Shown here: piece by piece, positions 9,630 to 49,899 of the stretch
How positions within the stretch are numbered: position 1 is the first letter of the stretch
Layout: each line of letters starts with the position of its first letter
Assembly: GCA_016193175.1 (NCBI GenBank)
Contig: JACPSR010000142.1
Coordinates: 118,332-182,331 of the forward strand
Source of the DNA: Candidatus Omnitrophota bacterium
GTDB lineage: Bacteria; Omnitrophota; Gorgyraeia; Aquiviventales; Aquiviventaceae
Direction of reading: 5' to 3'
DNA: 64,000 nucleotides
Notes under the pieces: model-generated
What the model was told of the DNA's origin: nothing
Seen by the model: only the letters and a program-made list of their open reading frames with translations
Databases searched by the model: none
Translations under genes and position numbers: made by a program

Positions 9630-9660
9630 GGTGGATGGTCGTCCGAGCCGCTGAGCTTCG

Positions 9661-10512: not shown

Positions 10513-10521
10513 CGGGGACAC

Positions 10522-11370: not shown

Positions 11371-11373
11371 GGC

Positions 11374-13092: not shown

Positions 13093-13126
13093 CTCCGAGG
13101 ACCCGTTGTCGGGTCGTGGACGCCTG

Positions 13127-13906: not shown

Positions 13907-13909
13907 CGA

Positions 13910-15244: not shown

Positions 15245-15271
15245 AAGCCGGAGGAACCGGGAGAGCTGGGG

Positions 15272-15619
15272 TACCGCACGGACGAAACCAGCCGGGAAGG
15301 GCCGGATCACGGGTTCTCCATGACCCTGGATGCGTGGCGGGAGATGGTCGACCGCACGCGGGAGCTAGAGCGTGCCCTCGGCCATCCAGAAAAGGTGGTG
15401 GCGGCACACGAGCAAGAGACGGCGATCCTCCAGCGGCGCTGCCTGCGGACGGCTCGCAATCTCACGGAGGGGACGCTCCTCATGCGCGACGCGATCGAGG
15501 TTCTTCGGCCGGCGCCTGGCGATGCGATTCTGCCCCACCGGATCGACCAGGTGGTGAGCCGGCGTCTCCGACGAGCGATGCGACGAGGGGAGCATTTCAC
15601 CTGGAGCGTGCTGGAGTGA
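15272..15619 (+). pseudogene. Orphan NeuB C-terminal fragment (linker helix + SAF domain); either a relic of a second synthase gene or a stand-alone SAF protein (ORF 15320..15619)
   Basis: The same frame continues directly after the aminotransferase stop and reads ..SREGPDHGFSMTLDAWREMVDRTRELERALGHPEKVVAAHEQETAILQRRCLRTARNLTEGTLLMRDAIEVLRPAPGDAILP.. This aligns with ..QGPDHSLSANPTQLAEMIQRIRSLERALGHAQLCVVEAEQGTLIYRR of the 10522 gene and then extends through a SAF-like domain. No TIM-barrel part lies upstream. Confidence 0.55.
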
Positions 15620-15621
15620 GG

Positions 15622-16266
15622 ATGGCGCGGCAGGCGAGGCGCGTGTCGCTGGTCCAAGGTCGGGGAAAGGACGCGACTGGTGTCGGAGAGCTGCGGGTCC
15701 GTCGACGGCTGCGAGGTCGCTTGCTGGTGGGATCACGGCTGTGCCTGCGACCTCTGACAGAGGCTGACGTGACCAAGGAGTATCTGGGGTGGCTGAACGA
15801 TTCAGAAGTCACGCGGTTCCTCGAGGTCGGCCGGCAGCGCTCCACGCACCAGACGGTGCGCAGGTACCTCACGCGGTTCCACGGCAGCCGAACGGACTTC
15901 ATCTTTGCGATGATCGATCGGAAGACCGGACGCCACATCGGCAACGTCACCGTCAATCGGATACATCGAGTTGATTGCACGGCCGATACAGGCCTGATGA
16001 TCGGACGGAAGGACCTGTGGGGAAAAGGATATGCCTATGAGGCCTGGAGTCTTGTGCTGGCGCATGCGTTCCGGGATCTTGGGCTGCGCAAGGTGGTAGC
16101 GACGGTGGTGGTGGATAACGTCCGGAGCCTCCGGGCCCTGAAGAAGCTTGGTTTTCACGTTGAAGGGGTCCTCCGCCAAGAGCGGTTCGTCAACGGGACC
16201 TACAAGGATGTCGTGCGGCTCGGCCTGTTCAGCCATGAGTTCGAGCCTCTGAGGGGCGGAAGATGA
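15622..16266 (+). CDS. GNAT N-acetyltransferase (RimJ/RimL-like)
   Basis: ..LRPLTEADVTKEYLGWLNDSEVTRFLE.., ..IGNVTVNRIH..., ..GRKDLWGKGYAYEAWSLVLAHAFRDLGLRKVVATVVVDNVRSLRALKKLGFHVEGVLR.. The track ORF 15166..16266 has an implausible Arg/Gly/Pro-rich N-terminal extension, so the start was set at ATG 15622, 2 nt after the SAF-ORF stop. Confidence 0.8.
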   Translation: MARQARRVSLVQGRGKDATGVGELRVRRRLRGRLLVGSRLCLRPLTEADVTKEYLGWLNDSEVTRFLEVGRQRSTHQTVRRYLTRFHGSRTDFIFAMIDRKTGRHIGNVTVNRIHRVDCTADTGLMIGRKDLWGKGYAYEAWSLVLAHAFRDLGLRKVVATVVVDNVRSLRALKKLGFHVEGVLRQERFVNGTYKDVVRLGLFSHEFEPLRGGR

Positions 16267-24709: not shown

Positions 24710-25828
24710 ATGTCGACGGTGCCCACGAGAGCGGCGATTCGCTACCGCGCAACAGAGCCGCTGATCTCGCCAAAGGTGCTGGAAAACCTCAGGCGCGTCT
24801 TGGAGGAAAAATACCTCAGTCCTGGCACGTGGGTGCGGGAATTCGAGCAGCGTTGGGCGAAGATCTGCGGTGTGAAGTACGCGGTGGCGACGTCGAGCGG
24901 GACCGCCGCGCTCCATCTGACGCTGAAGGCTGCAGGCATTGGGACAGGGGATGAGGTCATCGTTCCAGCTATGACGTGTCCCGATACCTTGAATGCCGCC
25001 ACGTTTGTGGGAGCCAAGCCGGTGATTGTCGACATTGAGCCAGTGCGGTATGGCATGGATCCGCAGCGGATGAAAGAAACGATCACGCGGCGCACCAAGG
25101 CGGTGGTTCCCGTACACCTGTACGGTTGTGTGGTGGCGCCTGAAGTCTTTGAGATCAGTCGGGCGAAGGGGTTGTTAGTGATTGAGGACGCGGCCGAGGC
25201 CCACGGGGCCGAGCTCAATGGTCGCAAGGCCGGTGCGCTCGGCATCGCGGGGTGCTTCAGTTTCCGGGGGGACAAAGTCTTAGGGGTGGGGACGGGAGGC
25301 ATGATCGTGACCGACGATGCCAGGATTGCGGAACGCTCCCGCTATCTCCTCGGAATGGCCAGTCCCGGCGGGTTTGACCGGTATGGTAGTACCGAGATGG
25401 GCTACAGCTATGAGCTCTCGAACATCCATGCGGCCATTGGGGTCGCGCAAATCGGCATGCTTGAAGAAACGCTGAAGACCCGACGGGCTATTGCAGGTTG
25501 GTATGACGAGATGCTGCCTGATGAGGACATCGAGAAACCCGCCATGGTCCCTGGCCATGTGTGGTGGAGGTATGGGGTGCTGCTGAAACGAGCCAATCCC
25601 CGGGCGGTGCATCAGACATTACTGGAACGTGGGATCGAAACGATGCCGCCGTTTGTGCCCATGTATCGCATTCCGATGTACCGTGATGGATGCGACCTCA
25701 CGCAGTTTCCGGTCGCCGAAGATGTCTATCGGCGGTCCCTGGCGCTTCCCATCAGCCCCTATCTACAGCGGGAAGACGTTGAGGAAATCGTCACTGCCCT
25801 CCAGCACGCCATGAAGGTATGCCCGTGA
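24710..25828 (+). CDS. DegT/DnrJ/EryC1-family PLP aminotransferase (paralog A)
   Basis: AAGGAG lies 5 nt upstream of the ATG. ..YAVATSSGTAALHLTLKAAGIGTGDEVIVPAMTCPDT.., ..VIEDAAEAHGAE.., ..CFSFRGDKVLGVGTGGMIVT.. (PLP lysine). Collinear with the 43366..44484 gene. Confidence 0.9.
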   Translation: MSTVPTRAAIRYRATEPLISPKVLENLRRVLEEKYLSPGTWVREFEQRWAKICGVKYAVATSSGTAALHLTLKAAGIGTGDEVIVPAMTCPDTLNAATFVGAKPVIVDIEPVRYGMDPQRMKETITRRTKAVVPVHLYGCVVAPEVFEISRAKGLLVIEDAAEAHGAELNGRKAGALGIAGCFSFRGDKVLGVGTGGMIVTDDARIAERSRYLLGMASPGGFDRYGSTEMGYSYELSNIHAAIGVAQIGMLEETLKTRRAIAGWYDEMLPDEDIEKPAMVPGHVWWRYGVLLKRANPRAVHQTLLERGIETMPPFVPMYRIPMYRDGCDLTQFPVAEDVYRRSLALPISPYLQREDVEEIVTALQHAMKVCP

Positions 25829-28422
25829 CGATACCCTTGAACCCAGCGGTGGGTGTGCATCTCCCGCATCAGCTCAGGGTGCCCAACGAGGTGGCGGTCG
25901 TTGGTTGCGGCAGGTGGGGGAAGGTCATCTGCAACGTGTTGACCGAATTCTCGCCCCCCATCGAACGGATTGTGCTTGTTGCCGCTCGCAACACGGATCA
26001 GGCGCGATCATGGGTGCAGGACAAGCGTGCGCAGCCCGATGGAGCCCGCTATGAGCGGGTGACGGTGACCGGTCGGCTTGAAGACGTCCTCAGCAATGAG
26101 GCGATTCCTGTCGCCTTTGTCACGAACATGGCGGCTGAACATTACGCCGTCACCAAGCGGCTGCTTCAGCACGACAAGCATGTGTTCGTGGAGAAACCGT
26201 TCGTCCTGACAACGGCGCAGGCGGAGGAGCTGGTCCAATTGGCGCAGGAGCGCGGGCGGACGTTGGTGGTCGGCCATGAGTATCTCGTGGCCCGGTTCAT
26301 GCATCATTTGCATGCCATGGTGCAACAGCATCTGCCCGATATCCGTGATATGGAGATGGTGTGGGAGGAGCCTCCCGGAGAAGAGAAGTGGGGATTGCGG
26401 AAGCAGCCGGATGCCAGCACCAACGTCATCACGAATCTCTACCCCCATGTGCTCAGCCAGCTCTTCGTCCTGTTCGGCTATCAGCCGATCACGCTGGAAA
26501 CGCTCGAGTCGAAGGATCGCTGTTGGCACGCGACGATGCGCTTGCGCTATGGCGACGTCCCTGTCACGGTGACGCTGGATAAGGCGGGCACGCGTTCCGT
26601 CCGCAGGATCAACGTGACCTCCTTGCGCGGTGACCGGATGACGTTCGACTACAGCGAGGAGCCCGGCACGCTCACCCTGAACGGCCGCCGGTTGCCTGAT
26701 GATCCCCAGGCCCACGCCGGTCCGAGGCCCCTGCCGTTGGAGATTACGCACTTCTTCGCCCAGATCGACTCGGCCGACCCGGCGCTGCCGACGCTCGGTG
26801 TGCACGCCGTGCCGATTGTGGAAGCGACCGAACGTGCCGACGCCGAGCTGCAACGCGCACAACTCCTCGTGCTCCGCGCCCACGCGCTCCGGGAGTGTCC
26901 GACGGCGTTGTCCCCAGACGTCGTCCGAATGCTGATCCCCCATCTCGTCTGTCCGCTGTTGGATCACGGGCTCATCAGCCATCCGAAGGATGAGCGGGCG
27001 CTGGAGCATTGGATCACCCAGGCCTTCCGCATTACCCACCAGTTCTCCCACTCGCCGTGGACCACGCAGGCTCAGACTCAGGAGTTGACCGGGTTGCCGA
27101 CACAGACCTTGCGAATGTTGAATGCGGCCATTCGAGATTCGGCGCTGCTTCAACAACTCATGGTACAGGAGGGGTTGGGCCGGAAGTACTGGACCACCAT
27201 CATCCCGATGATCCGGTCAGGGGTGTTGGACGCCGTCTTGACGAGCACCTATCGGTTTCCCCTGCGCACGGGTATCTACCCAGGGGTGTCCTGCATGTTC
27301 TTCTGCGGTTTCTGCGGGCGCAACCCCAGAGCGCGGTATGCGTTTGAGTCTGCCCCAACCGGCAACGCCATGTTTGAGGAGGTGTTCGCCAGCACCCCGC
27401 GAGATCGCGAATGCACGTTTTCGTTCTCCGGCGGATTAGAGCCGCTCACCAACCCAGGGCTCGGCGGGCTGATCCGAAGCGCCAAGCGGCACGGGATCAG
27501 GGTCCCGCTGATCACGAACGGCTACATGCTGGCCCAGCAATACCTGAAGCGACAGCCAGGTCTCTGGAGCTTGGATTCGCTGCGCGTGTCGCTCTACGGC
27601 ATTGATGAGGCGAGCTATGACGCCGTGACGCGGGTGCGCGGAGCCTTCGAGCAGGTGAAGCGCAACGTGATCGCGTTTCTCCGGATGCGCAATGAGCAGA
27701 ACCCCGCCCTGCAGTTCGGCTTGAATTTCATCATCCTCAGGAGCTGCACCGAGCAGGTGCTGAGGGTGCTGGATCTCATCGGGGAGATCAATGCGTCGGT
27801 GACGAACGGCCGCGGGGTGGATTTTTTGACGCTTCGAGAAGATTTCAGCGTGACGGAGGCGGAAGGGCTGACGCCGGAAGAGCGCGCGCGACTCATCGAC
27901 ACCTTCCGCATCTTCCGACAGCGATGGCAGACCGAGGCGATGCTCTCCGGTCTCGAGGTCGATTTCGGCTATGCGCTCCTTCCGCTGAGTGAAGGGGTGG
28001 CGGGGAAATCGCTGGCGATGGTGACCCATGAACAGATGCGGCCGAAGGCGTATCCGCAGATCTCGGTCGTCATCGATCTGCTCGGCGATGTCTACCTCTA
28101 CCGGGAAGCGGGATTTTTGGAACGGCCGGGGGCCGAGCGCTATAAGATCGGAACGATCTCTACGACGCGATCACTCGAACAGGTGATCCGCGACTTCCTG
28201 GACCATGGCCAGCCCATTGCGCCGCTTCCGACGGACCCTGTGCTCCTGGATGCGTTTGATCACATCGCGACCATCCTGATCAATCAAGCGGAATCGGATG
28301 CGGCGAGCGGGATTCCGTTCAATGAGGGGCCGGTCCGCGCGCGCTGCTACGAGCCGTCCGATGTCCGGCAGCCTCGTTCGACGACGCGCGTCCACGCCAC
28401 GTCCATGGCGGGTTCACGATGA
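25819..28422 (+). CDS. Fusion protein: N-terminal Gfo/Idh/MocA NAD(P) oxidoreductase + C-terminal radical-SAM enzyme (DesII-like by eye)
   Basis: 867 aa. Rossmann motif ..EVAVVGCGRWGKVI.. and the EKP motif ..HVFVEKPF.. Radical-SAM CX3CX2C in ..YPGVSCMFFCGFCGRN.. (Cys codons at 27292, 27304, 27313). Further blocks ..FSGGLEPLTNPGLGGL.., ..ITNGYML.., ..SLRVSLYGIDE.., ..DLLGDVYLYREAGF.. 10-nt overlap with the upstream DegT gene and ATGA overlap with the downstream GT1 gene. Confidence 0.8.
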   Translation: MPVTIPLNPAVGVHLPHQLRVPNEVAVVGCGRWGKVICNVLTEFSPPIERIVLVAARNTDQARSWVQDKRAQPDGARYERVTVTGRLEDVLSNEAIPVAFVTNMAAEHYAVTKRLLQHDKHVFVEKPFVLTTAQAEELVQLAQERGRTLVVGHEYLVARFMHHLHAMVQQHLPDIRDMEMVWEEPPGEEKWGLRKQPDASTNVITNLYPHVLSQLFVLFGYQPITLETLESKDRCWHATMRLRYGDVPVTVTLDKAGTRSVRRINVTSLRGDRMTFDYSEEPGTLTLNGRRLPDDPQAHAGPRPLPLEITHFFAQIDSADPALPTLGVHAVPIVEATERADAELQRAQLLVLRAHALRECPTALSPDVVRMLIPHLVCPLLDHGLISHPKDERALEHWITQAFRITHQFSHSPWTTQAQTQELTGLPTQTLRMLNAAIRDSALLQQLMVQEGLGRKYWTTIIPMIRSGVLDAVLTSTYRFPLRTGIYPGVSCMFFCGFCGRNPRARYAFESAPTGNAMFEEVFASTPRDRECTFSFSGGLEPLTNPGLGGLIRSAKRHGIRVPLITNGYMLAQQYLKRQPGLWSLDSLRVSLYGIDEASYDAVTRVRGAFEQVKRNVIAFLRMRNEQNPALQFGLNFIILRSCTEQVLRVLDLIGEINASVTNGRGVDFLTLREDFSVTEAEGLTPEERARLIDTFRIFRQRWQTEAMLSGLEVDFGYALLPLSEGVAGKSLAMVTHEQMRPKAYPQISVVIDLLGDVYLYREAGFLERPGAERYKIGTISTTRSLEQVIRDFLDHGQPIAPLPTDPVLLDAFDHIATILINQAESDAASGIPFNEGPVRARCYEPSDVRQPRSTTRVHATSMAGSR

Positions 28423-29678
28423 CGCGCGTTCCCGCGCAGTTCCAAGATGCCGATTGGACGCTGAAGCCGCTGATCAGTCCCTCGTCGGACCGGCCGGTCA
28501 GACGGCTGCCGGTGCACCTGTGCCTGTTCTTCACCCGCGGCATGTCGTTATGCGCCTGGCACGAGGAAGGCAGGTTGGAGCGCGAGCTGAAGCTCTACGA
28601 CGCCCTGGCTTCCCGAGTGGGGTCGCTGAGCTTCCTGACGTATGGCGCGCAGGAGGACCTGGCGTTTCAAGAGCGGTTGGGGCCGATCGCGGTCCTTGTC
28701 AACCGCTGGCGTCTTGATTCGAATGGCTACAGCGTGCTGGCGCCGCTGTTGCATCATCGCGCCCTGCGGCGGGCGACGATCTTCAAAACGAACCAGCTCA
28801 ACGGCGCCTGGTGCGCGGCGATCGCCAAGCGGCTCTTTGGCAAGAGGCTCGTGGTGCGGTGCGGGTTTGTCTGGTCGGATTTCTACGCGCGGGAAACCCC
28901 AAGCGCCTGGAAACGCCGCCTGGCCCGAACGGTTGAGCGGTGGACGCTGCGATCCGCGGACCGAATCGTGGTCGCCTCGGAGGCCGACCGGAGCTATTTC
29001 ATCAACCAGGACGGCATCGCGGCGGACATGATCCGCGTGATTCCGAACTACGTGGACATCGGGCATTTCAAGCCGGATCCAGCAGTCAGCAAGGAGCGCG
29101 GCCTGTTGTGCTACGTCGGCAAGCTCGGATACAACAAGAACCTGCCGGTATTGCTGGAAGCGATTCGAGAGATCCCTGGGGTGCGACTGAGGCTGATCGG
29201 GGATGGCCCGTTGCGCGAGCCGCTTGAGCAGCAAGCGCACGGCGCACGGCTGCCGGTGGAGTTCGTGGGCACGGTGCCGCATGACCGCTTGCCCGCCGTC
29301 CTGAACCGCGCAGAAGCGTTCGTCTTTCCCTCGGAATACGAGGGCCATCCCAAGGCGTTGCTGGAAGCCATGGCCTGCGGGCTGCCTGTGATCGGGTCCG
29401 ATGCCCCAGGGATTCGTGACATCATCACCCATCGCACAACAGGTCTGCTGTGTGGGCTCTCCGCTTCAGCGATCCGCTCAGCCATCCGCGAGCTGATGGT
29501 CGATCCGCCATTGCGAGATCGGCTCGGCGCAGCGGCTCGGGCCGCCATCATCTCAACATGCAGCCTGGATCGTGTCGTGGAGCAAGAGCTTGCGCTGTTG
29601 GAAGGCCTCTGTCTGAGCCAACCAGGTGGAGAGCGACCTGGCCCTGTGCAGCAGGCAGGGGACCTGCGCCGCGGATGA
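28419..29678 (+). CDS. Glycosyltransferase family 1 (GT4-like)
   Basis: ..FVFPSEYEGHPKALLEAMACGLPVIGSDAPGIRDIITHRTTGLL.. Confidence 0.85.
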   Translation: MTRVPAQFQDADWTLKPLISPSSDRPVRRLPVHLCLFFTRGMSLCAWHEEGRLERELKLYDALASRVGSLSFLTYGAQEDLAFQERLGPIAVLVNRWRLDSNGYSVLAPLLHHRALRRATIFKTNQLNGAWCAAIAKRLFGKRLVVRCGFVWSDFYARETPSAWKRRLARTVERWTLRSADRIVVASEADRSYFINQDGIAADMIRVIPNYVDIGHFKPDPAVSKERGLLCYVGKLGYNKNLPVLLEAIREIPGVRLRLIGDGPLREPLEQQAHGARLPVEFVGTVPHDRLPAVLNRAEAFVFPSEYEGHPKALLEAMACGLPVIGSDAPGIRDIITHRTTGLLCGLSASAIRSAIRELMVDPPLRDRLGAAARAAIISTCSLDRVVEQELALLEGLCLSQPGGERPGPVQQAGDLRRG

Positions 29679-32664: not shown

Positions 32665-33852
32665 ATGTGCGCTCCACGGGTGCTCATGGTGACCGGGGCG
32701 TATTATCCCGAAGTCAGCGGGGGCGGGCTGCAGTGCCGTACGCTGATCCAGGCCATTCGGGATCGCGCGGATGTCATCGTGCTCACCACGACGAGAGATG
32801 ACTCGCTGCCGAGACGTGATGAGGTCGACGGCGTTCCCGTCTACCGCATCCCGATTGATGTCATGCGATGGCGTTCGAAGCTCGCGGCCGCGATGCGGCT
32901 GATCGGGTTCTTCGGCCGATCCCACCACCGGTTTGACATCGTGCACCTTCACGGATTCTCGCAGAAATCCATGCTGCTGCTGGCTCTCTCTAGGCTGTTC
33001 CGTAAGCACCTGGCGCTCAAGCTTACGCTGGTGGGGGAGGACGACCCGGCCTCGGTTCGGACCAAGGGGCGATTGCGGTGGTGGTGTTACACCCATGTCG
33101 ATGCGTTTTTCGGCGTCAGCCCGCGCCTTCGACAGCTCCATGACACCTTCGGCCTGCCGCAGGAGAAATTTTGGCTCATCCCCAACGGCGTCGATCTTGG
33201 CCGGTTCCGTCCGCCTCAGGCCGGAGAACGCGTTGAGCTGCGCAGGGCGCTCGGCTTGCCTGAGACGAAGCCGCTGATTCTCTTTGTCGGGCTGTTTTCT
33301 CCGCGGAAGCGCCCCCAGGTGCTCGTGGAAGCGTGGGGGCGTCTGCGGCAGCGCGACACGGGCGCGCGCGCGACGACCCTCGTCTTCGTGGGAGCCACGC
33401 AGCCCAGAGGGTATGAGGTCGATCCCGCCCTCGGGCCTGAGATTCACGCGAGGATCAAAGCACTCAGCGCGGACCGCGACGCCGTGTTCATTGAACGGAC
33501 GCATCGGATTGATCAGTACTACCGGGCTGCGGATGTGTTCGTGCTGCCCTCGACCGGCGAGGGGCTGCCCAATGCGCTCCTGGAGGCGATGGCCTCGGGT
33601 CTGGCGTGTGTCGTGACGAAGCTGGACGGCTCAACCGACACGATTGTGGAGCATGGTGTCAACGGGCTGCTCGTTCCGCCCGAAGATCCAGAGGCGTTGG
33701 AGCGCACCCTGGAGGACCTGTTGGCCGATCCGGTGCGCGCCGACATGATGGGCCGTCAGGCCCGGCAGACCGTCGAGGCGCGTTTTGCCATCCGACAGAC
33801 CGCCGAACGCTGCCTCGAGGCCTACCGGTGTCTGCTGGCCGGGAGTCGGTGA
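32665..33852 (+). CDS. Glycosyltransferase family 1 (GT4-like)
   Basis: MCAPRVLMVTGAYYPEVSGGG.. and ..VFVLPSTGEGLPNALLEAMASGLACVVTKLDGSTDTIVEHGVNGLLV.. The first 285 codons of track ORF 31810..33852 are an out-of-frame artefact over the preceding gene. Confidence 0.9.
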   Translation: MCAPRVLMVTGAYYPEVSGGGLQCRTLIQAIRDRADVIVLTTTRDDSLPRRDEVDGVPVYRIPIDVMRWRSKLAAAMRLIGFFGRSHHRFDIVHLHGFSQKSMLLLALSRLFRKHLALKLTLVGEDDPASVRTKGRLRWWCYTHVDAFFGVSPRLRQLHDTFGLPQEKFWLIPNGVDLGRFRPPQAGERVELRRALGLPETKPLILFVGLFSPRKRPQVLVEAWGRLRQRDTGARATTLVFVGATQPRGYEVDPALGPEIHARIKALSADRDAVFIERTHRIDQYYRAADVFVLPSTGEGLPNALLEAMASGLACVVTKLDGSTDTIVEHGVNGLLVPPEDPEALERTLEDLLADPVRADMMGRQARQTVEARFAIRQTAERCLEAYRCLLAGSR

Positions 33853-35600
33853 TGTGGATTCTCGGGATCAGCACAGGCTTTGCCCACGATCCCTCCGCGA
33901 CGTTGCTGCAGGATGGGCGCGTGGTGATGGCGGTCGAAGAGGAGCGCCTGGATCGCGTGAAATACGGCAAGGGGTTTCCCCACCGGGCGATCGCGCGCTG
34001 CCTGGAGCACGCCGGGATCGCGTGGTCCGATGTCTCGGCCGTGGGGTTGAATTTCCAGCCGTGGAAGATGTACGCGACCGACCTCGCCCTGAACCTCGGC
34101 GAGCTCGTGCGTCCCGGGGCGCTGAAGTACGCGGCGTTTAATGCGTGCTGGGCGGCGTACCCCTTCCTATCGACGTTGAGAGAGGTGGAGAAGATCAAGC
34201 GGGTGACGAGCGGTACTGCCCGCATTCGGTTCATCGACCACCATCTGTGCCACGCCGCCAGCAGCTTTCTCGTTTCCCCGTTTGATGAAGCCGCCATCCT
34301 GACGATGGATAATCGAGGCGAGCGGGTGTCCAGCACCTGGGGCGTTGGGCGAGGCGCGACGATTCAGCGGCTCGGCGAGGTGCGATTCCCCCACTCGTTA
34401 GGCCTGCTGTACCTGAGCGTGACGCTCTATCTGGGGTTTCGCTTCGGGGATGAGTATCAGGTGATGGGCCTGGCGGCCTACGGAGAACCCGCGTTCTCCG
34501 ACGTGTTTGCCGACCTCATCCGAACAGATGACGCCGGCGGCTTTACGCTCAACCGGTCGTATTTTACCTATCTGGGAGCCGAAGGGTTCTTCTCAGATAA
34601 ATGGCGTCGGGCGTTCGGGCCGCGGAGGATGCCGGGAGAGCCGATCACCAAACGGCATCAGGATATCGCCTGCAGCCTGCAGCGTCGGCTGGAAGAGGTC
34701 GTCCTGCACATGGCGCAGCGGCTCCATGCCGCCACGGGGGCGCGCAACCTGTGCCTGGCCGGCGGGGTGGCGTTCAACAGCGTGATGAATGGTGTGCTGT
34801 TGAAACGCTCCCCCTTTGAACGCGTGTTCGTCCAACCTGCTGCCGGTGATGCGGGGACGTCGCTCGGGGCGGCTCTCGTGATGCATGATCGCCAGGGGGG
34901 TCGGCCCCGGACCTGGCGCATGACGCACGCGCTGCTGGGGCCGGCGTTTAGCGAGGAGCAGATCGAAGAGGCCCTCACCGCCTCAAAGCTGTCCTATGAG
35001 CGATGCCCTGACATCGCCACGCGCGTCGCCGAATTGTTAGCTCAGGGACGGATCGTCGGGTGGGTGCAGGGGCCGATGGAGTGGGGACCGCGGGCGTTGG
35101 GCGCGCGGAGCATTCTGGCCGATCCGAGACAGCCTCACATGAAGGATCTCCTCAACGCCTGCGTCAAGCACCGCGAATCCTTCAGGCCGTTTGCGCCTGC
35201 CGTCGTGGAAGAGCGCGCGGCGGAGTACTTCGACTGCCCCCACCCCTCGCCGTTCATGCTGTTCGTGCATTCGGTGCGTGTCGAGAAGCGGCATGAGATT
35301 CCTGCGGTGACCCATGTGGACGGCACGGCTCGGGTGCAGACGGTTCGCCGGCAGGAGCAGCCGCTCTTTTGGCAGGTGATCAAGGCATTCGAAGCCATCA
35401 CGGGGGTGCCGGTCGTGCTCAACACGTCGTTCAATGTCGATGGCGAGCCGATCGTCTGCTCCCCCCTGGATGCCATTCGGTGCTTTTTTGGGTCGGGCAT
35501 CGATGATCTGGCGATCGGGCCGTTTCTGGTGTCGAAGCGCCAGCCGGCCCCCTGGTCGTCTCCAGAGCCGGTGAGTGCGCAGGATGTTGCCACGCGCTGA
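33852..35600 (+). CDS. Carbamoyltransferase (NodU/CmcH family)
   Basis: MWILGISTGFAHDPSATLLQDGRVVMAVEEERLDRVKY.., ..IDHHLCHAASSF.., ..NLCLAGGVAFNSVMNG.., ..VVLNTSFNVDGEPIVCSP.. TGATG overlap with the upstream stop. Confidence 0.9.
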   Translation: MWILGISTGFAHDPSATLLQDGRVVMAVEEERLDRVKYGKGFPHRAIARCLEHAGIAWSDVSAVGLNFQPWKMYATDLALNLGELVRPGALKYAAFNACWAAYPFLSTLREVEKIKRVTSGTARIRFIDHHLCHAASSFLVSPFDEAAILTMDNRGERVSSTWGVGRGATIQRLGEVRFPHSLGLLYLSVTLYLGFRFGDEYQVMGLAAYGEPAFSDVFADLIRTDDAGGFTLNRSYFTYLGAEGFFSDKWRRAFGPRRMPGEPITKRHQDIACSLQRRLEEVVLHMAQRLHAATGARNLCLAGGVAFNSVMNGVLLKRSPFERVFVQPAAGDAGTSLGAALVMHDRQGGRPRTWRMTHALLGPAFSEEQIEEALTASKLSYERCPDIATRVAELLAQGRIVGWVQGPMEWGPRALGARSILADPRQPHMKDLLNACVKHRESFRPFAPAVVEERAAEYFDCPHPSPFMLFVHSVRVEKRHEIPAVTHVDGTARVQTVRRQEQPLFWQVIKAFEAITGVPVVLNTSFNVDGEPIVCSPLDAIRCFFGSGIDDLAIGPFLVSKRQPAPWSSPEPVSAQDVATR

Positions 35601-42087: not shown

Positions 42088-43355
42088 AACCCTGGGTTGG
42101 GATCATCCTGGCAGGGGTGGTGGCGCGGGTCGTGGTTATCGCGCTGTGCGGCGGGCTCCACCCGCAAGCGCTTGAGCCGTCCGTCATCGCGGCCAACCTC
42201 AATGCGGGGCGCGGGTTCACCTTTGAGCAATACGGCGCCGTCTACCACGCCTGGAAGGAACCGTTGTACATCGGGCTCTTGGCGATCCTGACGCGGTGGT
42301 TTGGAGAGCACCCGCTGCCATTACTGCTGTTTCAGGGGATGTTTGGGGTCGCTACGGCGGTGGGCGTGGCGATCGTTGCCCGCCGGATCCTTGGCGATGC
42401 CACCAAGGCGACCGTCGCCGGTGTCATCGCCTCGGCCAACCCGTTTCTGGTGTTCTATGATACACAGCGCATCCACCCCTTGAGCATGGACGCCTTCCTC
42501 TTTATTGCAACGACCGGCGCGGTGCTCGTGGCGGTCATGGGGCAGGGCGCTCGATGGCGCCAAAGCCTGGTGGCGGGGCTCGTGACAGGCCTGGCGCTGT
42601 GGCAACGGGCAACGTTGTTGGCCGCGGCGGCGATGTCGTGGTGTGCGGCTGTTATTCGCGCACCAGCCCCCCATCGCGCGCGGCGGGCGCTCTCGGCGGG
42701 TTGTTCGCTCATCCTCGCCCTCTTGGTCGTGTCTCCATGGCTCATCAGGAATTATCGCGTGCTGGGGCGATGGGCCGTCACGACGGATGCCGCGCACGTG
42801 TTCTGGCTGGGAAACAACCCCTGGTCCAACGGCACGTACTCCGATGACAAGGGCAGGCGTGTGTTCTATGTTGCGGACGAGGCGTTCCAACGGCATATTC
42901 TGGGGGCATCGGAGCTTGAACAGTACGATCGGTTCCGTGAGGCGGCGGGGCAGTTCATCGTCCAACAGCCTGCCCGATTCGCCGGGCTGGTCCTTGGGCG
43001 GCTCAAGACGTTTTTTTGGTTCTCCCCCAATTCAGGCCTCCTCTACACGACAGAACAAAAACTGATCTACCAGATTGCCTATGTCGGCCTGCTCAGCCTT
43101 GGGCTTGTGGGGCTGGCGGGGTTTTGGACACGGGCCACCGAATCCAGGCGTTACGAAGCTGGGGTGATCATTGCCGGGGTCCTGGGGTTAGCAGCCGCGC
43201 ACAGCGTGATCGTGATGAACTTGAAACACCGGGTCCCGCTGGAACTTGTGTTGGCGATCTTTGCAGCGGAGGGCCTTGTGCGCGGTCTCACCGTGCTCCG
43301 GGCGTGGGGAAAAGCTGTCAATGCTAAAGACGAAAGGCCGGCCGGCGAGAAGTAA
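42084..43355 (+). CDS. Polytopic membrane glycosyltransferase, GT-C (ArnT/PMT, GT39/83-like)
   Basis: MKPWVGIILAGVVARVVVIAL.., first-loop segment ..GRGFTFEQYGAVYHAWKEPLYIGLLAIL.., about 11 helices. The upstream 237 codons of the track ORF are an artefact over the preceding gene. Confidence 0.6.
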   Translation: MKPWVGIILAGVVARVVVIALCGGLHPQALEPSVIAANLNAGRGFTFEQYGAVYHAWKEPLYIGLLAILTRWFGEHPLPLLLFQGMFGVATAVGVAIVARRILGDATKATVAGVIASANPFLVFYDTQRIHPLSMDAFLFIATTGAVLVAVMGQGARWRQSLVAGLVTGLALWQRATLLAAAAMSWCAAVIRAPAPHRARRALSAGCSLILALLVVSPWLIRNYRVLGRWAVTTDAAHVFWLGNNPWSNGTYSDDKGRRVFYVADEAFQRHILGASELEQYDRFREAAGQFIVQQPARFAGLVLGRLKTFFWFSPNSGLLYTTEQKLIYQIAYVGLLSLGLVGLAGFWTRATESRRYEAGVIIAGVLGLAAAHSVIVMNLKHRVPLELVLAIFAAEGLVRGLTVLRAWGKAVNAKDERPAGEK

Positions 43356-43365
43356 GCGGACGACG

Positions 43366-44484
43366 ATGCGGTATCGTGCGACTGAGCCGCTCATTTCTCC
43401 GAAGGTCCTTGAGAACATCCGCAGGGTCCTGGAGGAGCGCTATCTGAGCCCTGGTCGCTGGGTGCGAACGTTTGAGGAGCGATGGGCCGCGGTGTGCGGC
43501 GTCACGTATGCGGTGGCCACTTCGAGCGGCACGGCCGCGCTTCATCTGGCGATGCGGGCGGCTGGCATTGGGCCGGGCGATGAGGTCATCGTCCCCGCGG
43601 TGACCTGCCCGGATACCTTGAACGCAGTGACCTTCGTGGGCGGAACACCTGTGATCGTCGATATCGAACCCCTGCGATTCGGCCTGGACCCCGCGCGGGT
43701 TCAAGAGGCGATCTCAAAGCGGACGAAGGCGGTCGTCCCCGTGCACCTGTATGGCTGTCCGGTGTCGCCGCAAGTCTTTGAGCTGTGCTCGGCGCGCGGC
43801 CTCCTGGTCATCGAGGATGCGGCAGAAGCGCATGGGGCGCAGCTCGATGGCCGGATGGTGGGGTCGCTCGGGACCATGTGCTGTTTCAGTTTCCGAGGGG
43901 ACAAGGTCCTGGGCGTGGGCACCGGGGGCATGATCACGACCAACAACCCCCAGCTGGCCCAGCGCGCCCGATACATGCTGGGGATGGCCAGCCCAGGCGG
44001 ATTTGACCGCTACCAGAGCACCGAGATGGGCTTTAGCTATGAGCTCTCGAACGTGCACGCGGCCATCGGCGTCGCGCAAATTGACGTCCTTGAGGAAACC
44101 CTGAGAGCAAAACGTCAGATTGCGAGATGGTATGACGAGCTGTTGCCGGAGGACGCCCTCGACAAACCAGCGATGATTCCAGGCCACGTCTGGTGGAGGT
44201 ACGCCGTGCTGCTGAAGACCGCTAACCCCCGAGAGGTCCATGCGCAGTTAATCGATGTAGGGATCGAGACGATGCCGCCGTTTACCCCGATGTATCGAAT
44301 CCCTATGTATCGCGGAGGCCACCGGCCATCCGATTTTCCAATTACTGAGGATCTCTACCGGCGATCCTTGGCGCTGCCGATCAGCCCCTATTTGGAGCGG
44401 CCGCAGGTGGAGGAAATTGTCAACGCCCTCCAGCAAGCGGTCAAAACATCCCGAGGGGATGCCTTAGAGCTTCGGAAACAATAA
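43366..44484 (+). CDS. DegT/DnrJ/EryC1-family PLP aminotransferase (paralog B)
   Basis: MRYRATEPLISPKVLENIRRVLEERYLSPGRWV.. is collinear with the 24710 gene without gaps; long identical blocks include YAVATSSGTAALHL, GLLVIEDAAEAHGA, CFSFRGDKVLGVGTGGMI, LGMASPGGFDRY and YRRSLALPISPYL. An alternative start is ATG 43321. Confidence 0.9.
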   Translation: MRYRATEPLISPKVLENIRRVLEERYLSPGRWVRTFEERWAAVCGVTYAVATSSGTAALHLAMRAAGIGPGDEVIVPAVTCPDTLNAVTFVGGTPVIVDIEPLRFGLDPARVQEAISKRTKAVVPVHLYGCPVSPQVFELCSARGLLVIEDAAEAHGAQLDGRMVGSLGTMCCFSFRGDKVLGVGTGGMITTNNPQLAQRARYMLGMASPGGFDRYQSTEMGFSYELSNVHAAIGVAQIDVLEETLRAKRQIARWYDELLPEDALDKPAMIPGHVWWRYAVLLKTANPREVHAQLIDVGIETMPPFTPMYRIPMYRGGHRPSDFPITEDLYRRSLALPISPYLERPQVEEIVNALQQAVKTSRGDALELRKQ

Positions 44485-48660: not shown

Positions 48661-48918
48661 AGCCGCGGCCGGCGCCCTCCAGACGTTCGAACACCTGCTT
48701 CGCGGAGCGATCCGAACCGCCGCTGGGTACCCCTGACGTGGTATCATATGTGACGTTGCGAAGAGGCGTTGGGGCGGACGGGTGAGGCGCGCCTGTGCTA
48801 CACGAAAGCGTCGGAGGCGGGAATCGGTGCAGCGGCTCGCCGCTTAGCGAACCGTCAAGGGGAGACCATTCAGACGATTGACATGGCGGCTCTGTCGGTG
48901 AATGAAAGGGAGAGAAGG

Positions 48919-49899
48919 ATGCGCATGTTGGTTACAGGTGGGGCGGGATTCATCGGGTCGCATTTGACTGAGCGGCTGCTGCAGGTGGACCATGAGGTGA
49001 CCGTGCTCGATAATCTCTCCACCGGCCACTATGAGAATATCGCGCACCTCGACGGCCACCCGCGCCTTCATTTTGTCGTGGGGACGATCCTCAACGAATC
49101 CCTGGTCGATAAGCTGGTGGAACGCTGCGATGTGGTGTTTCATCTAGCGGCAGCGGTCGGGGTTGAGCTTATCATCAAGAAGCCCCTCGAATCCCTGATG
49201 ACCAACATTCGAGGCAGCGAGGTCGTCCTGGAGATGGTGCATCGGTACCGCAAGAAGGTGCTGATCGCCTCGACGTCGGAGATCTACGGCAAGAACACGA
49301 ACGGTCCACTTCGGGAAGACACCGATCGCATCCTCGGCTCTCCGCTGAAAAGCCGGTGGAGCTACTCCACGTCAAAGGCGGTCGATGAGATCCTGGCGCA
49401 CGTCTACTGGAAAGAGAAAGGGGTGCCGACGGTCATCGTGCGTCTCTTTAACACGGTGGGTCCCCGACAAAGCGGCGCCTATGGGATGGTGATCCCCCGC
49501 TTTGTCAGCCAGGCGCTGAAAGGAGAGCCGCTCGTGGTGCATGGGAGCGGGAAGCAATCCCGCTGCTTCCTGCATGTGAAAGACGTGGTGAACGCCCTGG
49601 TGAAGCTGATTGAGCATCCCCGGGCGGTGGGGGACGTTTTCAACCTGGGCAGCCAGGAAGAGGTGACCATTGAAGCGCTGGCCAACCTCGTCATCCGTCT
49701 GACCAAAAGCCCCTCGCGAGCTGTCTACGTGCCCTATGAAGAAGCCTATGAAGAGGGGTTTGAGGACATGCCACGGCGGGTGCCGGATACCAGCAAGGTT
49801 CGCGGCCTGATCGGTTTCCAGCCCACGATGAATCTCGAGGAGATTATCCAGAGCGTGGTGGACAGCATGCGCCAACCCTTTCCAGCACCCGCCAAATAG
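48919..49899 (+). CDS. NAD-dependent NDP-sugar epimerase/dehydratase (extended SDR; UXS/ArnA-C/GalE-like)
   Basis: MRMLVTGGAGFIGSHL.., ..ASTSEIYG.., ..YSTSKAVDE.. (YxxxK). GGGAGAGAAGG lies directly upstream of ATG 48919; the track's 50-aa N-terminal extension is unlikely. Confidence 0.9.
   Translation: MRMLVTGGAGFIGSHLTERLLQVDHEVTVLDNLSTGHYENIAHLDGHPRLHFVVGTILNESLVDKLVERCDVVFHLAAAVGVELIIKKPLESLMTNIRGSEVVLEMVHRYRKKVLIASTSEIYGKNTNGPLREDTDRILGSPLKSRWSYSTSKAVDEILAHVYWKEKGVPTVIVRLFNTVGPRQSGAYGMVIPRFVSQALKGEPLVVHGSGKQSRCFLHVKDVVNALVKLIEHPRAVGDVFNLGSQEEVTIEALANLVIRLTKSPSRAVYVPYEEAYEEGFEDMPRRVPDTSKVRGLIGFQPTMNLEEIIQSVVDSMRQPFPAPAK

What the first reader, a model, noticed from the sequence alone, without database searches (positions are those of the whole stretch)
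24710..28422. DegT aminotransferase coupled to a Gfo/Idh/MocA::radical-SAM fusion, a candidate self-contained sugar deoxygenation module
Seen in sequence: ORF 25819..28422 (867 aa) starts with a Gfo/Idh/MocA-type NAD(P) domain (EVAVVGCGRWGKVI.., ..HVFVEKPF..). After a ~130-aa helical linker it carries a radical-SAM core with CX3CX2C (..YPGVSCMFFCGFCGRN..; Cys codons at 27292/27304/27313). Further blocks are ..FSGGLEPLTNPGLGGL.., ..SLRVSLYGIDE.. and ..DLLGDVYLYREAGF.. It overlaps the stop of a DegT-family aminotransferase by 10 nt and the next GT1 gene by ATGA, so the three are probably co-translated. Established knowledge: the well-characterised pairing of a DegT-family 4-aminotransferase with a radical-SAM enzyme is DesI/DesII in desosamine biosynthesis. 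There the radical-SAM enzyme deaminates TDP-4-amino-4,6-dideoxyglucose to the 3-keto-4,6-dideoxy sugar, giving net C4 deoxygenation. From memory the blocks above resemble DesII, but I cannot verify that here. Inference: the fused dehydrogenase domain could reduce or oxidise the product on the same polypeptide. That would give an aminotransferase, then radical deaminase, then ketoreductase route to an unusual deoxy-hexose for a cell-surface glycan rather than an antibiotic. I know of no characterised Gfo/Idh/MocA::radical-SAM fusion.
Basis: partly seen in the sequence, partly recalled or inferred. Interest (0 to 1): 0.85.

Follow-up and report, generated by a model that had tools for sequence, protein, structure and literature searches.

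The report
Sugar oxidoreductase fused to DesII-type enzyme
One 867-residue gene in a cell-surface sugar cluster joins an NAD-type sugar oxidoreductase to a complete copy of the radical enzyme DesII (known from antibiotic sugar synthesis), and this pairing, fused or as neighbouring genes, recurs across environmental bacteria, pointing to an uncharacterised route to deoxy sugars.

Summary
ORF 25819..28422 (867 aa) is real, and the identical protein occurs in independent assemblies. The fusion is conserved in more than 25 divergent homologues.

The C-terminal half is a full DesII-family radical SAM enzyme. It scores 393.6 bits to TIGR04426, below the 450 equivalog cutoff. It scores 323 bits to the S. 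venezuelae DesII sequence, and the model superposes on the crystal structure at TM 0.90. The cluster cysteines, the SAM motifs and the equivalents of DesII E408 and D456 are all present.

The N-terminal half is a complete but divergent Gfo/Idh/MocA enzyme. Sugar C3 dehydrogenases and ketoreductases (GnnA, KijD10) are among its best structural matches.

The main new result is comparative. Of 69 stand-alone DesII-like genes recovered from metagenomes, 56 have a short Gfo-like gene within 1 kb, mostly abutting. Streptomyces DesII lacks one. So Gfo plus DesII-like is a conserved two-part module.

The DegT link is weaker. The neighbour resembles perosamine synthase and LegC, not DesI. A DegT lies nearby in only about a third of loci with enough flank.

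The likeliest mechanism is radical deamination (or dehydration) to a 3-keto sugar, followed by NAD(P)H reduction. No publication on this architecture was found, so it counts as a new variant of a known kind.

The parts
25819..28422 (+). Gfo/Idh/MocA::DesII-like radical SAM fusion protein, 867 aa
   Evidence: ORF; Pfam and NCBIfam domains; conserved full-length homologues; AF2 model with pLDDT 84.9 and pTM 0.85
25819..26853 (+). Gfo/Idh/MocA oxidoreductase domain (aa 1-345): Rossmann half plus alpha/beta C-terminal half
   Evidence: PF01408 at aa 25-153. The model has strands up to aa ~287 and a helix at 304-317. Foldseek gives TMt 0.81 to GnnA and KijD10.
25897..25923 (+). Dinucleotide-binding motif VVGCGRWGK (G29, G31, W33)
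   Evidence: G29 and G31 are found in 79 of 80 fused and split family members; position 33 is W or F
26182..26202 (+). VFVEKPF, the EKP motif with Lys126
   Evidence: E125-K126-P127 are invariant in 24 fusions and 56 split Gfo-like partners
26431..26448 (+). TNLYPH: His210 of the D-x-x-x-H motif; this protein has Asn206 where 23 of 24 fusions have Asp
26914..27243 (+).
   Evidence: It aligns to DesII residues ~50-130. The model places the helices here. The DesII paper describes an N-terminal domain of six helices.
27265..27966 (+). Radical SAM core (aa ~483-716)
   Evidence: PF04055; alignment to the DesII RS domain S132-L369
27292..27315 (+). CMFFCGFC: CX3CX2C cluster ligands C492, C496 and C499
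   Evidence: Aligned with DesII C141, C145 and C148
27427..27444 (+). SGGLEP: GGE SAM-binding motif
   Evidence: Aligned with DesII G187-E190
27580..27600 (+). LRVSLYG: ribose motif (R589, S591, Y593)
   Evidence: Aligned with DesII R238, S240 and Y242
28093..28116 (+). YLYREAGF: Glu763, equivalent to the proposed DesII general base E408
   Evidence: the position is E or D across the family
28243..28263 (+). LLDAFDH: Asp811, equivalent to DesII D456 (the D456A mutant is inactive)
24710..25828 (+). DegT-family PLP aminotransferase, perosamine-synthase/LegC-like, with the catalytic Lys retained; overlaps the fusion start by 10 nt
   Evidence: PF01041 324 bits. NCBIfam LegC 252, PseC 226, DesI 170 bits, all below their cutoffs. 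Best PDB match is GDP-perosamine synthase 3bn1 at 243 bits, with FSFRGDK aligned to FSFFGNK.
28419..29678 (+). GT4 glycosyltransferase, with an ATGA overlap onto the fusion stop; candidate user of the product sugar
   Evidence: Glycos_transf_1 121.6 bits, Glyco_transf_4 56 bits
43246..44484 (+). Paralogue of the DegT neighbour (74% identical), 17 kb downstream in the same glycan locus

Best explanation
The gene encodes a bifunctional enzyme of nucleotide-sugar (or closely related sugar) metabolism, serving a lipopolysaccharide or O-antigen-like glycan locus.

Proposed steps:
1. The DesII-type radical SAM half binds a [4Fe-4S] cluster and SAM. It abstracts the hydrogen on the carbinol carbon next to an amino-bearing carbon (C3-H of a 4-amino-4,6-dideoxyhexose in DesII).
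2. With the Glu763/Asp811 pair as proton shuttle, it eliminates ammonia to give a 3-keto-4-deoxy sugar.
3. The fused Gfo/Idh/MocA half then reduces that ketone with NAD(P)H, giving an NDP-4,6-dideoxy (or 4-deoxy) hexose.

In this window the amine is most likely installed by the translationally coupled perosamine-synthase/LegC-like DegT aminotransferase. The product would be used by the overlapping GT4 and possibly modified by the neighbouring methyltransferases.

Shown here: both domains are complete with intact catalytic motifs, the radical SAM half belongs to the DesII family, and Gfo and DesII-like genes are linked across the family in fused and split forms.

Inferred: the substrate, the order of the steps, the direction of the Gfo reaction, and the role of the DegT.
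For: Radical SAM half:
- TIGR04426 scores 393.6 bits over profile positions 27-460 of 468.
- It scores 323 bits to the DesII sequence (PDB 8HZV), and Foldseek gives TMt 0.90 at rmsd 2.8.
- C492/C496/C499, the GGE and ribose motifs, Glu763 (DesII E408) and Asp811 (DesII D456, essential) are all conserved.

Gfo half:
- G-x-G, E-K-P and His210 are invariant in 24 fusions and 56 split partners.
- The best characterised structural neighbours by TM-score include GnnA (UDP-GlcNAc 3-dehydrogenase, TMt 0.81) and KijD10 (TDP-sugar 3-ketoreductase, TMt 0.81). GenD2 and KanD2 score lower (~0.70).

Coupling of the two halves:
- Fusions make up about 18 representatives at 50% identity.
- Of 69 stand-alone DesII-like loci, 56 have a Gfo-like gene within 1 kb. 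Only 4 of the 13 without one have adequate flanks.
- pTM of 0.85 for the whole two-domain model suggests a defined domain arrangement.

Amine route and glycan setting:
- The DegT overlaps the fusion by 10 nt and keeps its Lys. Its closest solved relative makes a 4-amino-4,6-dideoxyhexose.
- A DegT also lies directly upstream of the fusion most closely related to true DesII (L091) and 1 kb from the fusion in L160.
- Glycan context recurs in the window, after a GT2, and with Bac_transf plus WecG.
- DesII chemistry is taken from PMC11434129.
Against: - The radical SAM half scores below the DesII equivalog cutoff (393.6 against 450).
- The DegT is not DesI-like (170 against 650), and no 4,6-dehydratase or sugar-1-phosphate nucleotidyltransferase for this route is evident in the 64 kb. 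The extended SDR is UXS/ArnA-like.
- Most family loci show no DegT in the available flanks. Where one is present, its type varies: perosamine-synthase-like, PseC-like, or 2-deoxy-scyllo-inosose aminotransferase-like.
- Several close fusion relatives sit directly after NRPS-PKS genes, not glycan genes.
- This protein alone has Asn at the Asp206 position of the Gfo D-x-x-x-H motif.
- Foldseek E-values across Gfo structures are nearly flat, so C3 specificity is only a hint.
- In an operon of about 15 overlapping genes, overlap with the DegT is weak evidence of specific coupling.
Confidence: 0.5

Rival explanations
1. Deoxygenation without an aminotransferase. The DesII-like half acts on a vicinal diol sugar as a radical dehydratase (or dehydrogenase), and the Gfo half reduces the resulting ketone. 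This would work like the AprD4 radical SAM dehydratase and its reductase partner AprD3 in apramycin biosynthesis. The adjacent DegT would serve another branch of the glycan pathway.
For: - The Gfo association is near-universal, whereas DegT is found near only 3 of 9 fusion loci and 10 of 26 stand-alone loci with at least 8 kb of flank.
- Some fusions stand alone with no sugar-amine genes nearby.
- DesII itself oxidises TDP-quinovose and partly dehydrates TDP-fucose (PMC11434129).
- A 74%-identical DegT paralogue elsewhere in the window shows that this DegT type is used in the locus independently of the fusion.
Against: - DesII does not dehydrate its equatorial 4-OH analogue; it oxidises it.
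- The acidic pair proposed to handle the ammonium group (E763, D811) is retained.
- A DegT is immediately upstream in two phylogenetically distant fusions (window and L091).
- The flanks of most metagenome contigs are too short to exclude a DegT.
- The families of AprD4 and AprD3 were not compared here; this analogy rests on memory.
Confidence: 0.2
2. The Gfo half acts first, as a sugar dehydrogenase. It would work like GnnA or WbpB, which (from general knowledge) oxidise C3 to feed a DegT-family aminotransferase. Here it would make the keto group that the DegT transaminates, and the DesII-like half would then deaminate radically. The bound NADH could be recycled on the final ketone. The result would be deoxygenation that needs no 4,6-dehydratase.
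For: - No clear 4,6-dehydratase lies in the window.
- GnnA, a UDP-GlcNAc 3-dehydrogenase, is among the best structural matches of the N-half, and GenD2 and KanD2 also match.
- The gene order DegT then Gfo::DesII is translationally coupled.
Against: - There is no direct evidence for the reaction order.
- It requires DegT co-occurrence, which is not conserved.
- KijD10, a ketoreductase, matches equally well.
- A 3-amino product would put the amine on the carbon from which DesII abstracts hydrogen, so a different regiochemistry would be needed.
Confidence: 0.12
3. The substrate is not a nucleotide sugar. It could be a cyclitol or aminocyclitol, or an amino-alcohol moiety of a lipid, peptide or polyketide product. 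The pair would still perform radical deamination or oxidation followed by NAD(P)H redox.
For: - Close fusion relatives lie directly downstream of a hybrid NRPS-PKS, followed by a hydrolase, a sulfotransferase and two phosphodiesterases.
- The DegT beside the L091 fusion most resembles 2-deoxy-scyllo-inosose aminotransferases.
- The Gfo family includes inositol dehydrogenases (weak hits).
Against: - The window gene is embedded among GT4, GT2 and methyltransferase genes of a glycan locus that also carries an O-antigen ligase and heptosyltransferases.
- The closest sub-clade relatives (P0002, P0018, L100) are next to glycosyltransferases.
- The DesII N-terminal helical domain is retained intact.
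Confidence: 0.08
4. The Gfo-like partner is not a sugar enzyme. It would be a dedicated NAD(P)H-dependent electron supply for the radical SAM cluster, since deamination by DesII consumes reducing equivalents.
For: In many marine split forms the Gfo-like domain is fused to a FAD/NAD(P)-binding oxidoreductase domain. That combination could pass single electrons.
Against: - Gfo/Idh/MocA enzymes transfer hydrides and have no one-electron carrier.
- The window fusion has no flavin domain.
- The substrate-side residues Lys126 (EKP) and His210 are invariant in 78-80 of 80 members.
Confidence: 0.05

Closest known systems
DesII of Streptomyces venezuelae (dTDP-4-amino-4,6-dideoxy-D-glucose ammonia-lyase; TIGR04426; PDB 8HZV/8HZY)
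   Same: - Same three-domain fold: N-terminal helical domain, radical SAM core, C-terminal domain.
- 35-36% identity in the structural alignment, TMt 0.90.
- Same CX3CX2C, GGE and ribose motifs.
- Same Glu (E408 to E763) and essential Asp (D456 to D811).

   Different: - It scores below the equivalog cutoff (393.6 against 450).
- It is fused to a ~345-aa Gfo/Idh/MocA enzyme that DesII lacks.
- Its partner aminotransferase is not DesI-type.
- It sits in an envelope-glycan locus of a Candidatus Omnitrophica MAG rather than a macrolide cluster.
- In desosamine synthesis the 3-keto product is transaminated (DesV, from general knowledge). Here a reductase is attached instead.
- The beta6 Tyr is Phe (REDFS).
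Gfo/Idh/MocA sugar C3 oxidoreductases: KijD10 (TDP-sugar 3-ketoreductase, 3RC9), GnnA (UDP-GlcNAc 3-dehydrogenase, 7BVJ), GenD2 and KanD2
   Same: Two-domain Gfo fold, TMt 0.81 for KijD10 and GnnA and ~0.70 for GenD2 and KanD2. It has the G-x-G dinucleotide motif, the EKP lysine and the motif histidine.
   Different: - Only 14-20% identity.
- The Pfam C-terminal Gfo models do not hit.
- The G-R-W-G/A-K and L-Y-P-H signatures are distinctive.
- Asn replaces the motif Asp in this protein.
- It is covalently fused to a radical SAM enzyme.
- The best sequence matches in the PDB are uncharacterised (YvaA, YhhX).
DesI/DesII aminotransferase plus radical deaminase pair (desosamine C4 deoxygenation)
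   Same: A DegT-family aminotransferase gene lies directly upstream of a DesII-family gene. Streptomyces loci L012 and L013 show the same adjacency, with a 3-4 nt overlap.
   Different: The DegT here is perosamine-synthase/LegC-like (DesI model 170 bits against a 650 cutoff). The pairing is not conserved in the Gfo-linked part of the family.
AprD4/AprD3 (radical SAM diol dehydratase plus NADPH reductase; C3' deoxygenation in apramycin and tobramycin)
   Same: Same logic: a radical SAM lyase makes a ketone that a nicotinamide-dependent reductase reduces, giving net deoxygenation. This rests on general knowledge; AprD4 is cited in PMC11434129.
   Different: They are separate proteins acting on a pseudodisaccharide, and they belong to a different radical SAM subfamily. 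No sequence comparison was run here.

Membership tests
DesII (TIGR04426 equivalog, dTDP-4-amino-4,6-dideoxy-D-glucose ammonia-lyase) | Score at or above the curated NCBIfam equivalog cutoff (450 bits) | tested here: not met
   393.6 bits, E = 1.1e-117, covering profile positions 27-460 of 468. It is clearly in the family but below the cutoff for naming it DesII.
DesII (TIGR04426 equivalog, dTDP-4-amino-4,6-dideoxy-D-glucose ammonia-lyase) | CX3CX2C cluster motif plus the GGE, ribose and beta6 SAM-binding motifs | tested here: met
   C492, C496 and C499; SGGLEP; LRVSLYG; REDFS (Tyr to Phe). All align with DesII C141/C145/C148, G187-E190, R238/S240/Y242 and D323/Y324.
DesII (TIGR04426 equivalog, dTDP-4-amino-4,6-dideoxy-D-glucose ammonia-lyase) | Three-domain fold: N-terminal six-helix domain, radical SAM core, C-terminal hairpin plus helices | tested here: met
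   AF2 model (pLDDT 84.9) against 8HZV_A: TMt 0.90, rmsd 2.8 over 482 columns
DesII (TIGR04426 equivalog, dTDP-4-amino-4,6-dideoxy-D-glucose ammonia-lyase) | Active-site acid/base pair E408 and D456 | tested here: met
   Glu763 in YLYREAGF and Asp811 in LLDAFDH. Across the fusions the first position is E or D and the second is nearly invariant.
DesII (TIGR04426 equivalog, dTDP-4-amino-4,6-dideoxy-D-glucose ammonia-lyase) | Genomic partnership with a DesI-type 4-aminotransferase and the other desosamine genes | tested here: not met
   The neighbouring DegT scores 169.7 bits to TIGR04427 (cutoff 650); LegC, PseC and ArnB models score higher. No macrolide or desosamine genes are present.
DesII (TIGR04426 equivalog, dTDP-4-amino-4,6-dideoxy-D-glucose ammonia-lyase) | SAM-dependent deamination of TDP-4-amino-4,6-dideoxy-D-glucose to the 3-keto sugar | not testable with these tools
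   Requires anaerobic biochemistry
Gfo/Idh/MocA oxidoreductases | N-terminal Rossmann domain with a G-x-G-x-x-G-type motif (PF01408 above the gathering score) | tested here: met
   69.8 bits against a cutoff of 24, at aa 25-153; VVGCGRWGK
Gfo/Idh/MocA oxidoreductases | EKP motif lysine | tested here: met
   VFVEKPF, K126; invariant in 80 of 80 fused and split members
Gfo/Idh/MocA oxidoreductases | C-terminal alpha/beta substrate-binding domain | tested here: met
   The Pfam C-terminal models do not hit. However, the model has the beta-sheet domain at aa 175-290, and whole-domain superpositions on GnnA and KijD10 reach TMt 0.81.
Gfo/Idh/MocA oxidoreductases | D-x-x-x-H catalytic motif (Asp and His, as in 1,5-anhydro-D-fructose reductase; the role is recalled from general knowledge) | tested here: inconclusive
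   His210 is invariant. The Asp position is Asn206 in this protein only (23 of 24 fusions have Asp) and is R, N or K in the split forms.
DegT/DnrJ/EryC1/StrS aminotransferases (the neighbouring gene) | PF01041 above cutoff and the PLP-binding lysine present | tested here: met
   324.3 bits; FSFRGDK aligns with the lysine region FSFFGNK of perosamine synthase 3bn1

The most novel reading that the evidence does not exclude
The Gfo-like oxidoreductase plus DesII-like radical SAM enzyme is an ancient, widespread two-component sugar deoxygenation module, found fused or as abutting genes. It would make 4-deoxy or 4,6-dideoxy sugars for the envelope glycans of marine bacteria and candidate phyla, in many lineages without any aminotransferase (radical dehydration followed by reduction). 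The well-known macrolide DesII would then be a derived offshoot that lost the reductase partner when its keto product was diverted to transamination.
Probability: 0.25. Interest if true: 0.75.

Novelty: new variant of a known kind. Interest (0 to 1): 0.6.

Why it matters
DesII is a textbook radical SAM enzyme, known in practice from actinomycete macrolide sugar pathways. This analysis indicates that most of the family's sequence diversity lies elsewhere: in environmental bacteria, where it is fused to or abuts a distinctive Gfo/Idh/MocA oxidoreductase.

If the pair makes deoxy sugars for cell-surface glycans, three things follow:
- It would add a radical route to the known deoxygenation strategies of primary envelope biosynthesis.
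- It would predict unusual 4-deoxy or 4,6-dideoxy sugars in uncultured lineages, including Omnitrophota and marine taxa.
- It would give enzymologists a natural single-polypeptide system for studying how the DesII substrate radical partitions between deamination, dehydration and oxidation when a ketoreductase is attached.

It also corrects database names. JGI labels these proteins as the DesII ammonia-lyase, and NCBI labels them only as a Gfo/Idh/MocA oxidoreductase.

Tried and rejected
- **Assembly artefact or gene-calling error: rejected.** The identical protein occurs in independent assemblies, and the fusion is conserved at 35-54% identity.
- **Another radical SAM subfamily (SPASM maturase, B12 methylase, viperin, MoaA): rejected.** The best non-DesII model scores 38 bits against 393.6.
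- **The DegT is DesI: rejected**.
- **Search for a 4,6-dehydratase or RmlA in the window.** Only a UXS/ArnA-like SDR was found, so the sugar's origin is unresolved.
- **Scan of species-representative genomes with the full-length alignment.** It returned three Streptomyces DesII loci and 77 ordinary Gfo genes. This says nothing about how rare fusions are in isolate genomes.
- **phmmer with the window's Gfo domain.** It missed the short Gfo-like partners of the marine genes. They were found only after Pfam flagged two of them and they were used as seeds.
- **FAD-type domain fused to many split Gfo-like partners.** No informative match beyond the dinucleotide-binding fold.
- **Neighbour-joining tree.** Deep nodes are unsupported (bootstrap below 50), so the number of fusion and fission events cannot be stated.
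- **Whether the two active sites face each other.** This could not be checked, because model coordinates and the predicted aligned error are not returned.
- **Two literature queries failed on syntax**. The valid queries found no paper on DesII-like enzymes in LPS or on Gfo-radical SAM fusions.

Full report
**1. The observation**

ORF 25819..28422 on the + strand encodes 867 residues. Pfam places a GFO_IDH_MocA Rossmann domain at aa 25-153 (69.8 bits) and a Radical_SAM core at aa 487-620 (33.6 bits).

The upstream DegT-family gene (24710..25828; PF01041, 324 bits) overlaps the start by 10 nt. The downstream GT4 gene (28419..29678) overlaps the stop by ATGA.

The fusion is not an artefact. The identical protein lies on four contigs, including two separate SRA-run assemblies and an NCBI MAG labelled Candidatus Omnitrophica. 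Full-length homologues at 38-54% identity align end to end without a break between the domains.

**2. The radical SAM half**

NCBIfam's best model is TIGR04426 (rSAM_desII) at 393.6 bits, E = 1e-117. The match covers aa 395-832 and profile positions 27-460 of 468. The next radical SAM model reaches only 38 bits. The score is below the curated equivalog cutoff of 450. The domain is therefore in the DesII family but is not certified as DesII.

Against the PDB it matches S. venezuelae DesII (8HZV/8HZY) at 323 bits over aa 401-837.

The DesII structure paper (PMC11434129) defines the following features:
- cluster ligands C141, C145 and C148;
- the GGE motif G187-E190;
- the ribose motif R238, S240 and Y242;
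- beta6 residues D323 and Y324;
- the proposed general base E408 (the E408A and E408Q mutants remain active);
- D456, whose alanine mutant is inactive.

All of these align to identical residues here: CMFFCGFC, SGGLEP, LRVSLYG, Glu763 in YLYREAGF and Asp811 in LLDAFDH. The one exception is Tyr324, which is Phe (REDFS).

That region is DesII's N-terminal six-helix domain.

An AlphaFold2 model built on the 17-sequence alignment has mean pLDDT 84.9 and pTM 0.85. Its C-terminal half superposes on 8HZV with TMt 0.90 and rmsd 2.8 Å.

**3. The Gfo half**

Residues 1-345 form a complete two-domain Gfo/Idh/MocA fold in the model. The signature residues G29, G31, E125-K126-P127 and H210 are invariant across 17 aligned fusions. 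They also hold across a wider set of 24 fusions plus 56 unfused partners.

By sequence the domain is divergent, and its best PDB matches are uncharacterised proteins (YvaA, YhhX). By structure, the best-superposing characterised enzymes are:
- GnnA, a UDP-GlcNAc 3-dehydrogenase (TMt 0.81);
- KijD10, a TDP-sugar 3-ketoreductase (TMt 0.81);
- the aminoglycoside C3'' dehydrogenases GenD2 and KanD2, at about 0.70.

Foldseek E-values across the Gfo family are nearly flat, so this is a hint of sugar C3 chemistry and not proof.

One oddity stands out. The Asp of the D-x-x-x-H motif is present in 23 of 24 fusions but is Asn206 in the window protein.

**4. How common the pairing is, and what goes with it**

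An exhaustive HMMER search of 1.84 billion representatives at 50% identity found only 79 proteins at E ≤ 1e-30. These include about 15 full-length fusions, three more with a shorter Gfo part that Pfam confirms, and about 18 stand-alone DesII-like proteins.

A metagenome scan seeded with DesII-domain patterns returned 80 loci. Eleven were further fusions and 69 were stand-alone genes of about 500-530 aa. The stand-alone genes are 41-50% identical to the window's C-half, and many come from marine-survey assemblies judging by record names such as TARA.

Pfam flagged the gene right after two of the stand-alone genes as GFO_IDH_MocA. Using those two as seeds gave the following result for the 69 stand-alone loci:
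- 56 carry a homologous short Gfo-like gene within 1 kb;
- 43 of these lie just downstream on the same strand, mostly with a 0-13 nt gap or a small overlap;
- 11 lie just upstream, and 2 are on the opposite strand within 1 kb;
- of the 13 without one, 9 have flanks under 900 bp.

These partners share the G-x-W/F-G, EKP and His signatures of the fused domain. In many they form the N-terminus of a ~575-aa protein that also carries a FAD/NAD(P)-binding domain.

The three Streptomyces DesII loci have no Gfo partner. Each has a DegT (DesI-type position) upstream, overlapping in two of them.

In a bootstrapped neighbour-joining tree the Streptomyces DesII clade (95-100%) is sister, with 100% support, to a Gfo::DesII fusion (L091/P0047). 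The window protein sits in a clade of fusions (73%) next to the marine split clade. Deeper nodes are unsupported.

The robust conclusion is that, outside the macrolide DesII clade, DesII-like enzymes come with a dedicated Gfo-like oxidoreductase, either fused or abutting. This is the strongest evidence that the two halves act in one pathway.

**5. The aminotransferase link**

The neighbouring DegT retains its PLP lysine. It scores 252 bits to the LegC model, 226 to PseC, 193 to ArnB and only 170 to DesI (cutoff 650), and it passes no cutoff. Its best solved relative is Caulobacter GDP-perosamine synthase, which makes a 4-amino-4,6-dideoxyhexose (243 bits). A 74%-identical paralogue lies at 43246..44484.

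Across the family, a DegT lies within 7 kb in 3 of 9 fusion loci and 10 of 26 stand-alone loci that have at least 8 kb of flank. Where it is close to a fusion, its type differs:
- perosamine-synthase-like in this window;
- PseC-like in L160, inside what looks like a pseudaminic-acid-type cluster;
- a 2-deoxy-scyllo-inosose aminotransferase-like domain fused to a GT2 in L091, directly upstream and overlapping.

So an amine-bearing substrate is plausible here and recurs elsewhere. It is not a defining feature of the module.

**6. Genomic setting**

The window is one long + strand glycan locus. It contains:
- GT4, GT2 and GT9 glycosyltransferases;
- at least five methyltransferases;
- a carbamoyltransferase;
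- a WecA-like initiating transferase;
- an O-antigen ligase and heptosyltransferases;
- a NeuB/CMP-transferase nonulosonic-acid block;
- three DegT genes.

The only extended SDR (48769..49899) is UXS/ArnA-like. No sugar-1-phosphate nucleotidyltransferase for this route was seen. The source of the presumed 4-keto sugar is therefore open.

Other fusions sit in a range of contexts:
- next to a GT2;
- beside a Bac_transf plus WecG pair;
- near a GHMP kinase, an SDR, a GT4 and a nucleotidyltransferase;
- directly behind a hybrid NRPS-PKS, followed by a hydrolase, a sulfotransferase and two phosphodiesterases (at least five loci);
- with no informative neighbours.

**7. Mechanism**

The best-supported reading has three steps:
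1. An NDP-4-amino-4,6-dideoxyhexose is made by the coupled DegT.
2. It is deaminated by DesII-type chemistry. SAM is cleaved reductively, the hydrogen next to the amine-bearing carbon is abstracted, and ammonia is eliminated with help from Glu763 and Asp811. The product is the 3-keto-4-deoxy sugar.
3. The fused Gfo domain reduces that ketone with NAD(P)H. The resulting deoxy sugar goes to the overlapping GT4.

Family membership, intact motifs and the Gfo/DesII-like linkage are shown. The substrate, the order of steps and the direction of the Gfo reaction are inferred. I put about 0.5 on this full scheme and roughly 0.75 on the broader claim that the two halves perform consecutive steps on one sugar.

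The rivals are:
- aminotransferase-independent radical dehydration followed by reduction, with AprD4/AprD3-like logic (0.2);
- Gfo acting first as the dehydrogenase that feeds the DegT (0.12);
- a non-nucleotide-sugar substrate (0.08);
- Gfo as an electron supply (0.05).

**8. Novelty**

SFLD and RadicalSAM.org list a 'DesII-like' subgroup. Full-text searches found no paper on DesII-like enzymes in LPS or glycan loci, or on a Gfo/Idh/MocA-radical SAM fusion. Databases name these proteins either as the DesII ammonia-lyase (JGI) or as a Gfo/Idh/MocA oxidoreductase (NCBI).

I rate this a new variant of a known kind. The chemistry is probably DesII-like. The obligate oxidoreductase partner, the envelope-glycan setting and the breadth in uncultured bacteria are new and directly testable.

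Noticed in passing
window 8424-16266: A nonulosonic-acid-type block. It contains a WecE/dTDP-Fuc4N-type DegT (387.7 bits, above its 375 cutoff), an SDR, NeuB, a GNAT-containing 572-aa protein, a CMP-type cytidylyltransferase, a class-III aminotransferase close to glutamate-1-semialdehyde aminomutase models, and another GNAT.
   Followed up: partly
window 43246-44484: A third DegT gene, 74% identical to the one beside the fusion. This looks like a recent duplication within the same glycan locus.
   Followed up: partly
L005 1-13995, L006 1-18034, L007 3-12461, L095 1-9262, L096: The largest sub-clade of fusions lies directly after a hybrid NRPS-PKS (A-KR-PCP, C-A-PCP, KS-AT-MT-KR-ACP), with overlapping stop and start. 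It is followed by an alpha/beta hydrolase, a sulfotransferase and two type-I phosphodiesterases. This is a recurrent, unexplained natural-product-like cluster with no DegT.
   Followed up: partly
L118:11425-13173, L132:4832-6544, L158:11454-13178, L130:5206-7080: In many marine loci the short Gfo-like partner of the stand-alone DesII-like gene is fused to a ~330-aa FAD/NAD(P)-binding (DAO/Pyr_redox-like) domain. That domain has no informative PDB match. A PfkB-like kinase gene often sits just upstream.
   Followed up: partly
P0017 (L008:2205-4805), alignment A1 columns ~506-516: One NCBI-derived fusion homologue has lost the CX3CX2C cysteines (AAS---HGAPGGR) and the Asp811 equivalent, while keeping the Gfo motifs. 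It may be a degenerate radical SAM half or a sequence error.
   Followed up: no
P0145 (807 aa), P0169 (866 aa), P0125 (1111 aa): Other proteins combine a Gfo/Idh/MocA domain with a radical SAM region that matches the DesII domain only weakly (21-28 bits). Some have the opposite domain order. Gfo-radical SAM fusions may therefore exist beyond the DesII family.
   Followed up: no
L160 6361-15119: Here the fusion sits in a pseudaminic-acid-like cluster: a CTP_transf_3 cytidylyltransferase, a second small radical SAM gene, the fusion, a PseC-like DegT and a GT28-C/GNAT protein. This hints that a 4-amino-4,6-dideoxy-HexNAc intermediate could be the substrate in that lineage.
   Followed up: partly
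L100 759-5107 and the P0018 contig: A compact triad recurs in two distant lineages: the Gfo::DesII fusion, a Bac_transf phosphoglycosyl transferase and a WecG/TagA-type glycosyltransferase. The gene order differs between the two.
   Followed up: no
window 49911-51728: A WecA/MraY-family transferase (Glycos_transf_4) is fused to a CoA_binding_3 domain, which is usually found in polyprenyl glycosylphosphotransferases.
   Followed up: no
window 3022-5019 and 39065-40942; 33606-35600: Two asparagine-synthase-like amidotransferases and a carbamoyltransferase lie inside the glycan locus. They suggest amidated and carbamoylated sugars.
   Followed up: no
alignment A1, last ~15 columns: Most fusions end in a conserved VNYWQGLFGA tail. 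The window protein, P0002 and P0018 lack it, and the window tail (aa 848-867) is modelled with low confidence.
   Followed up: no
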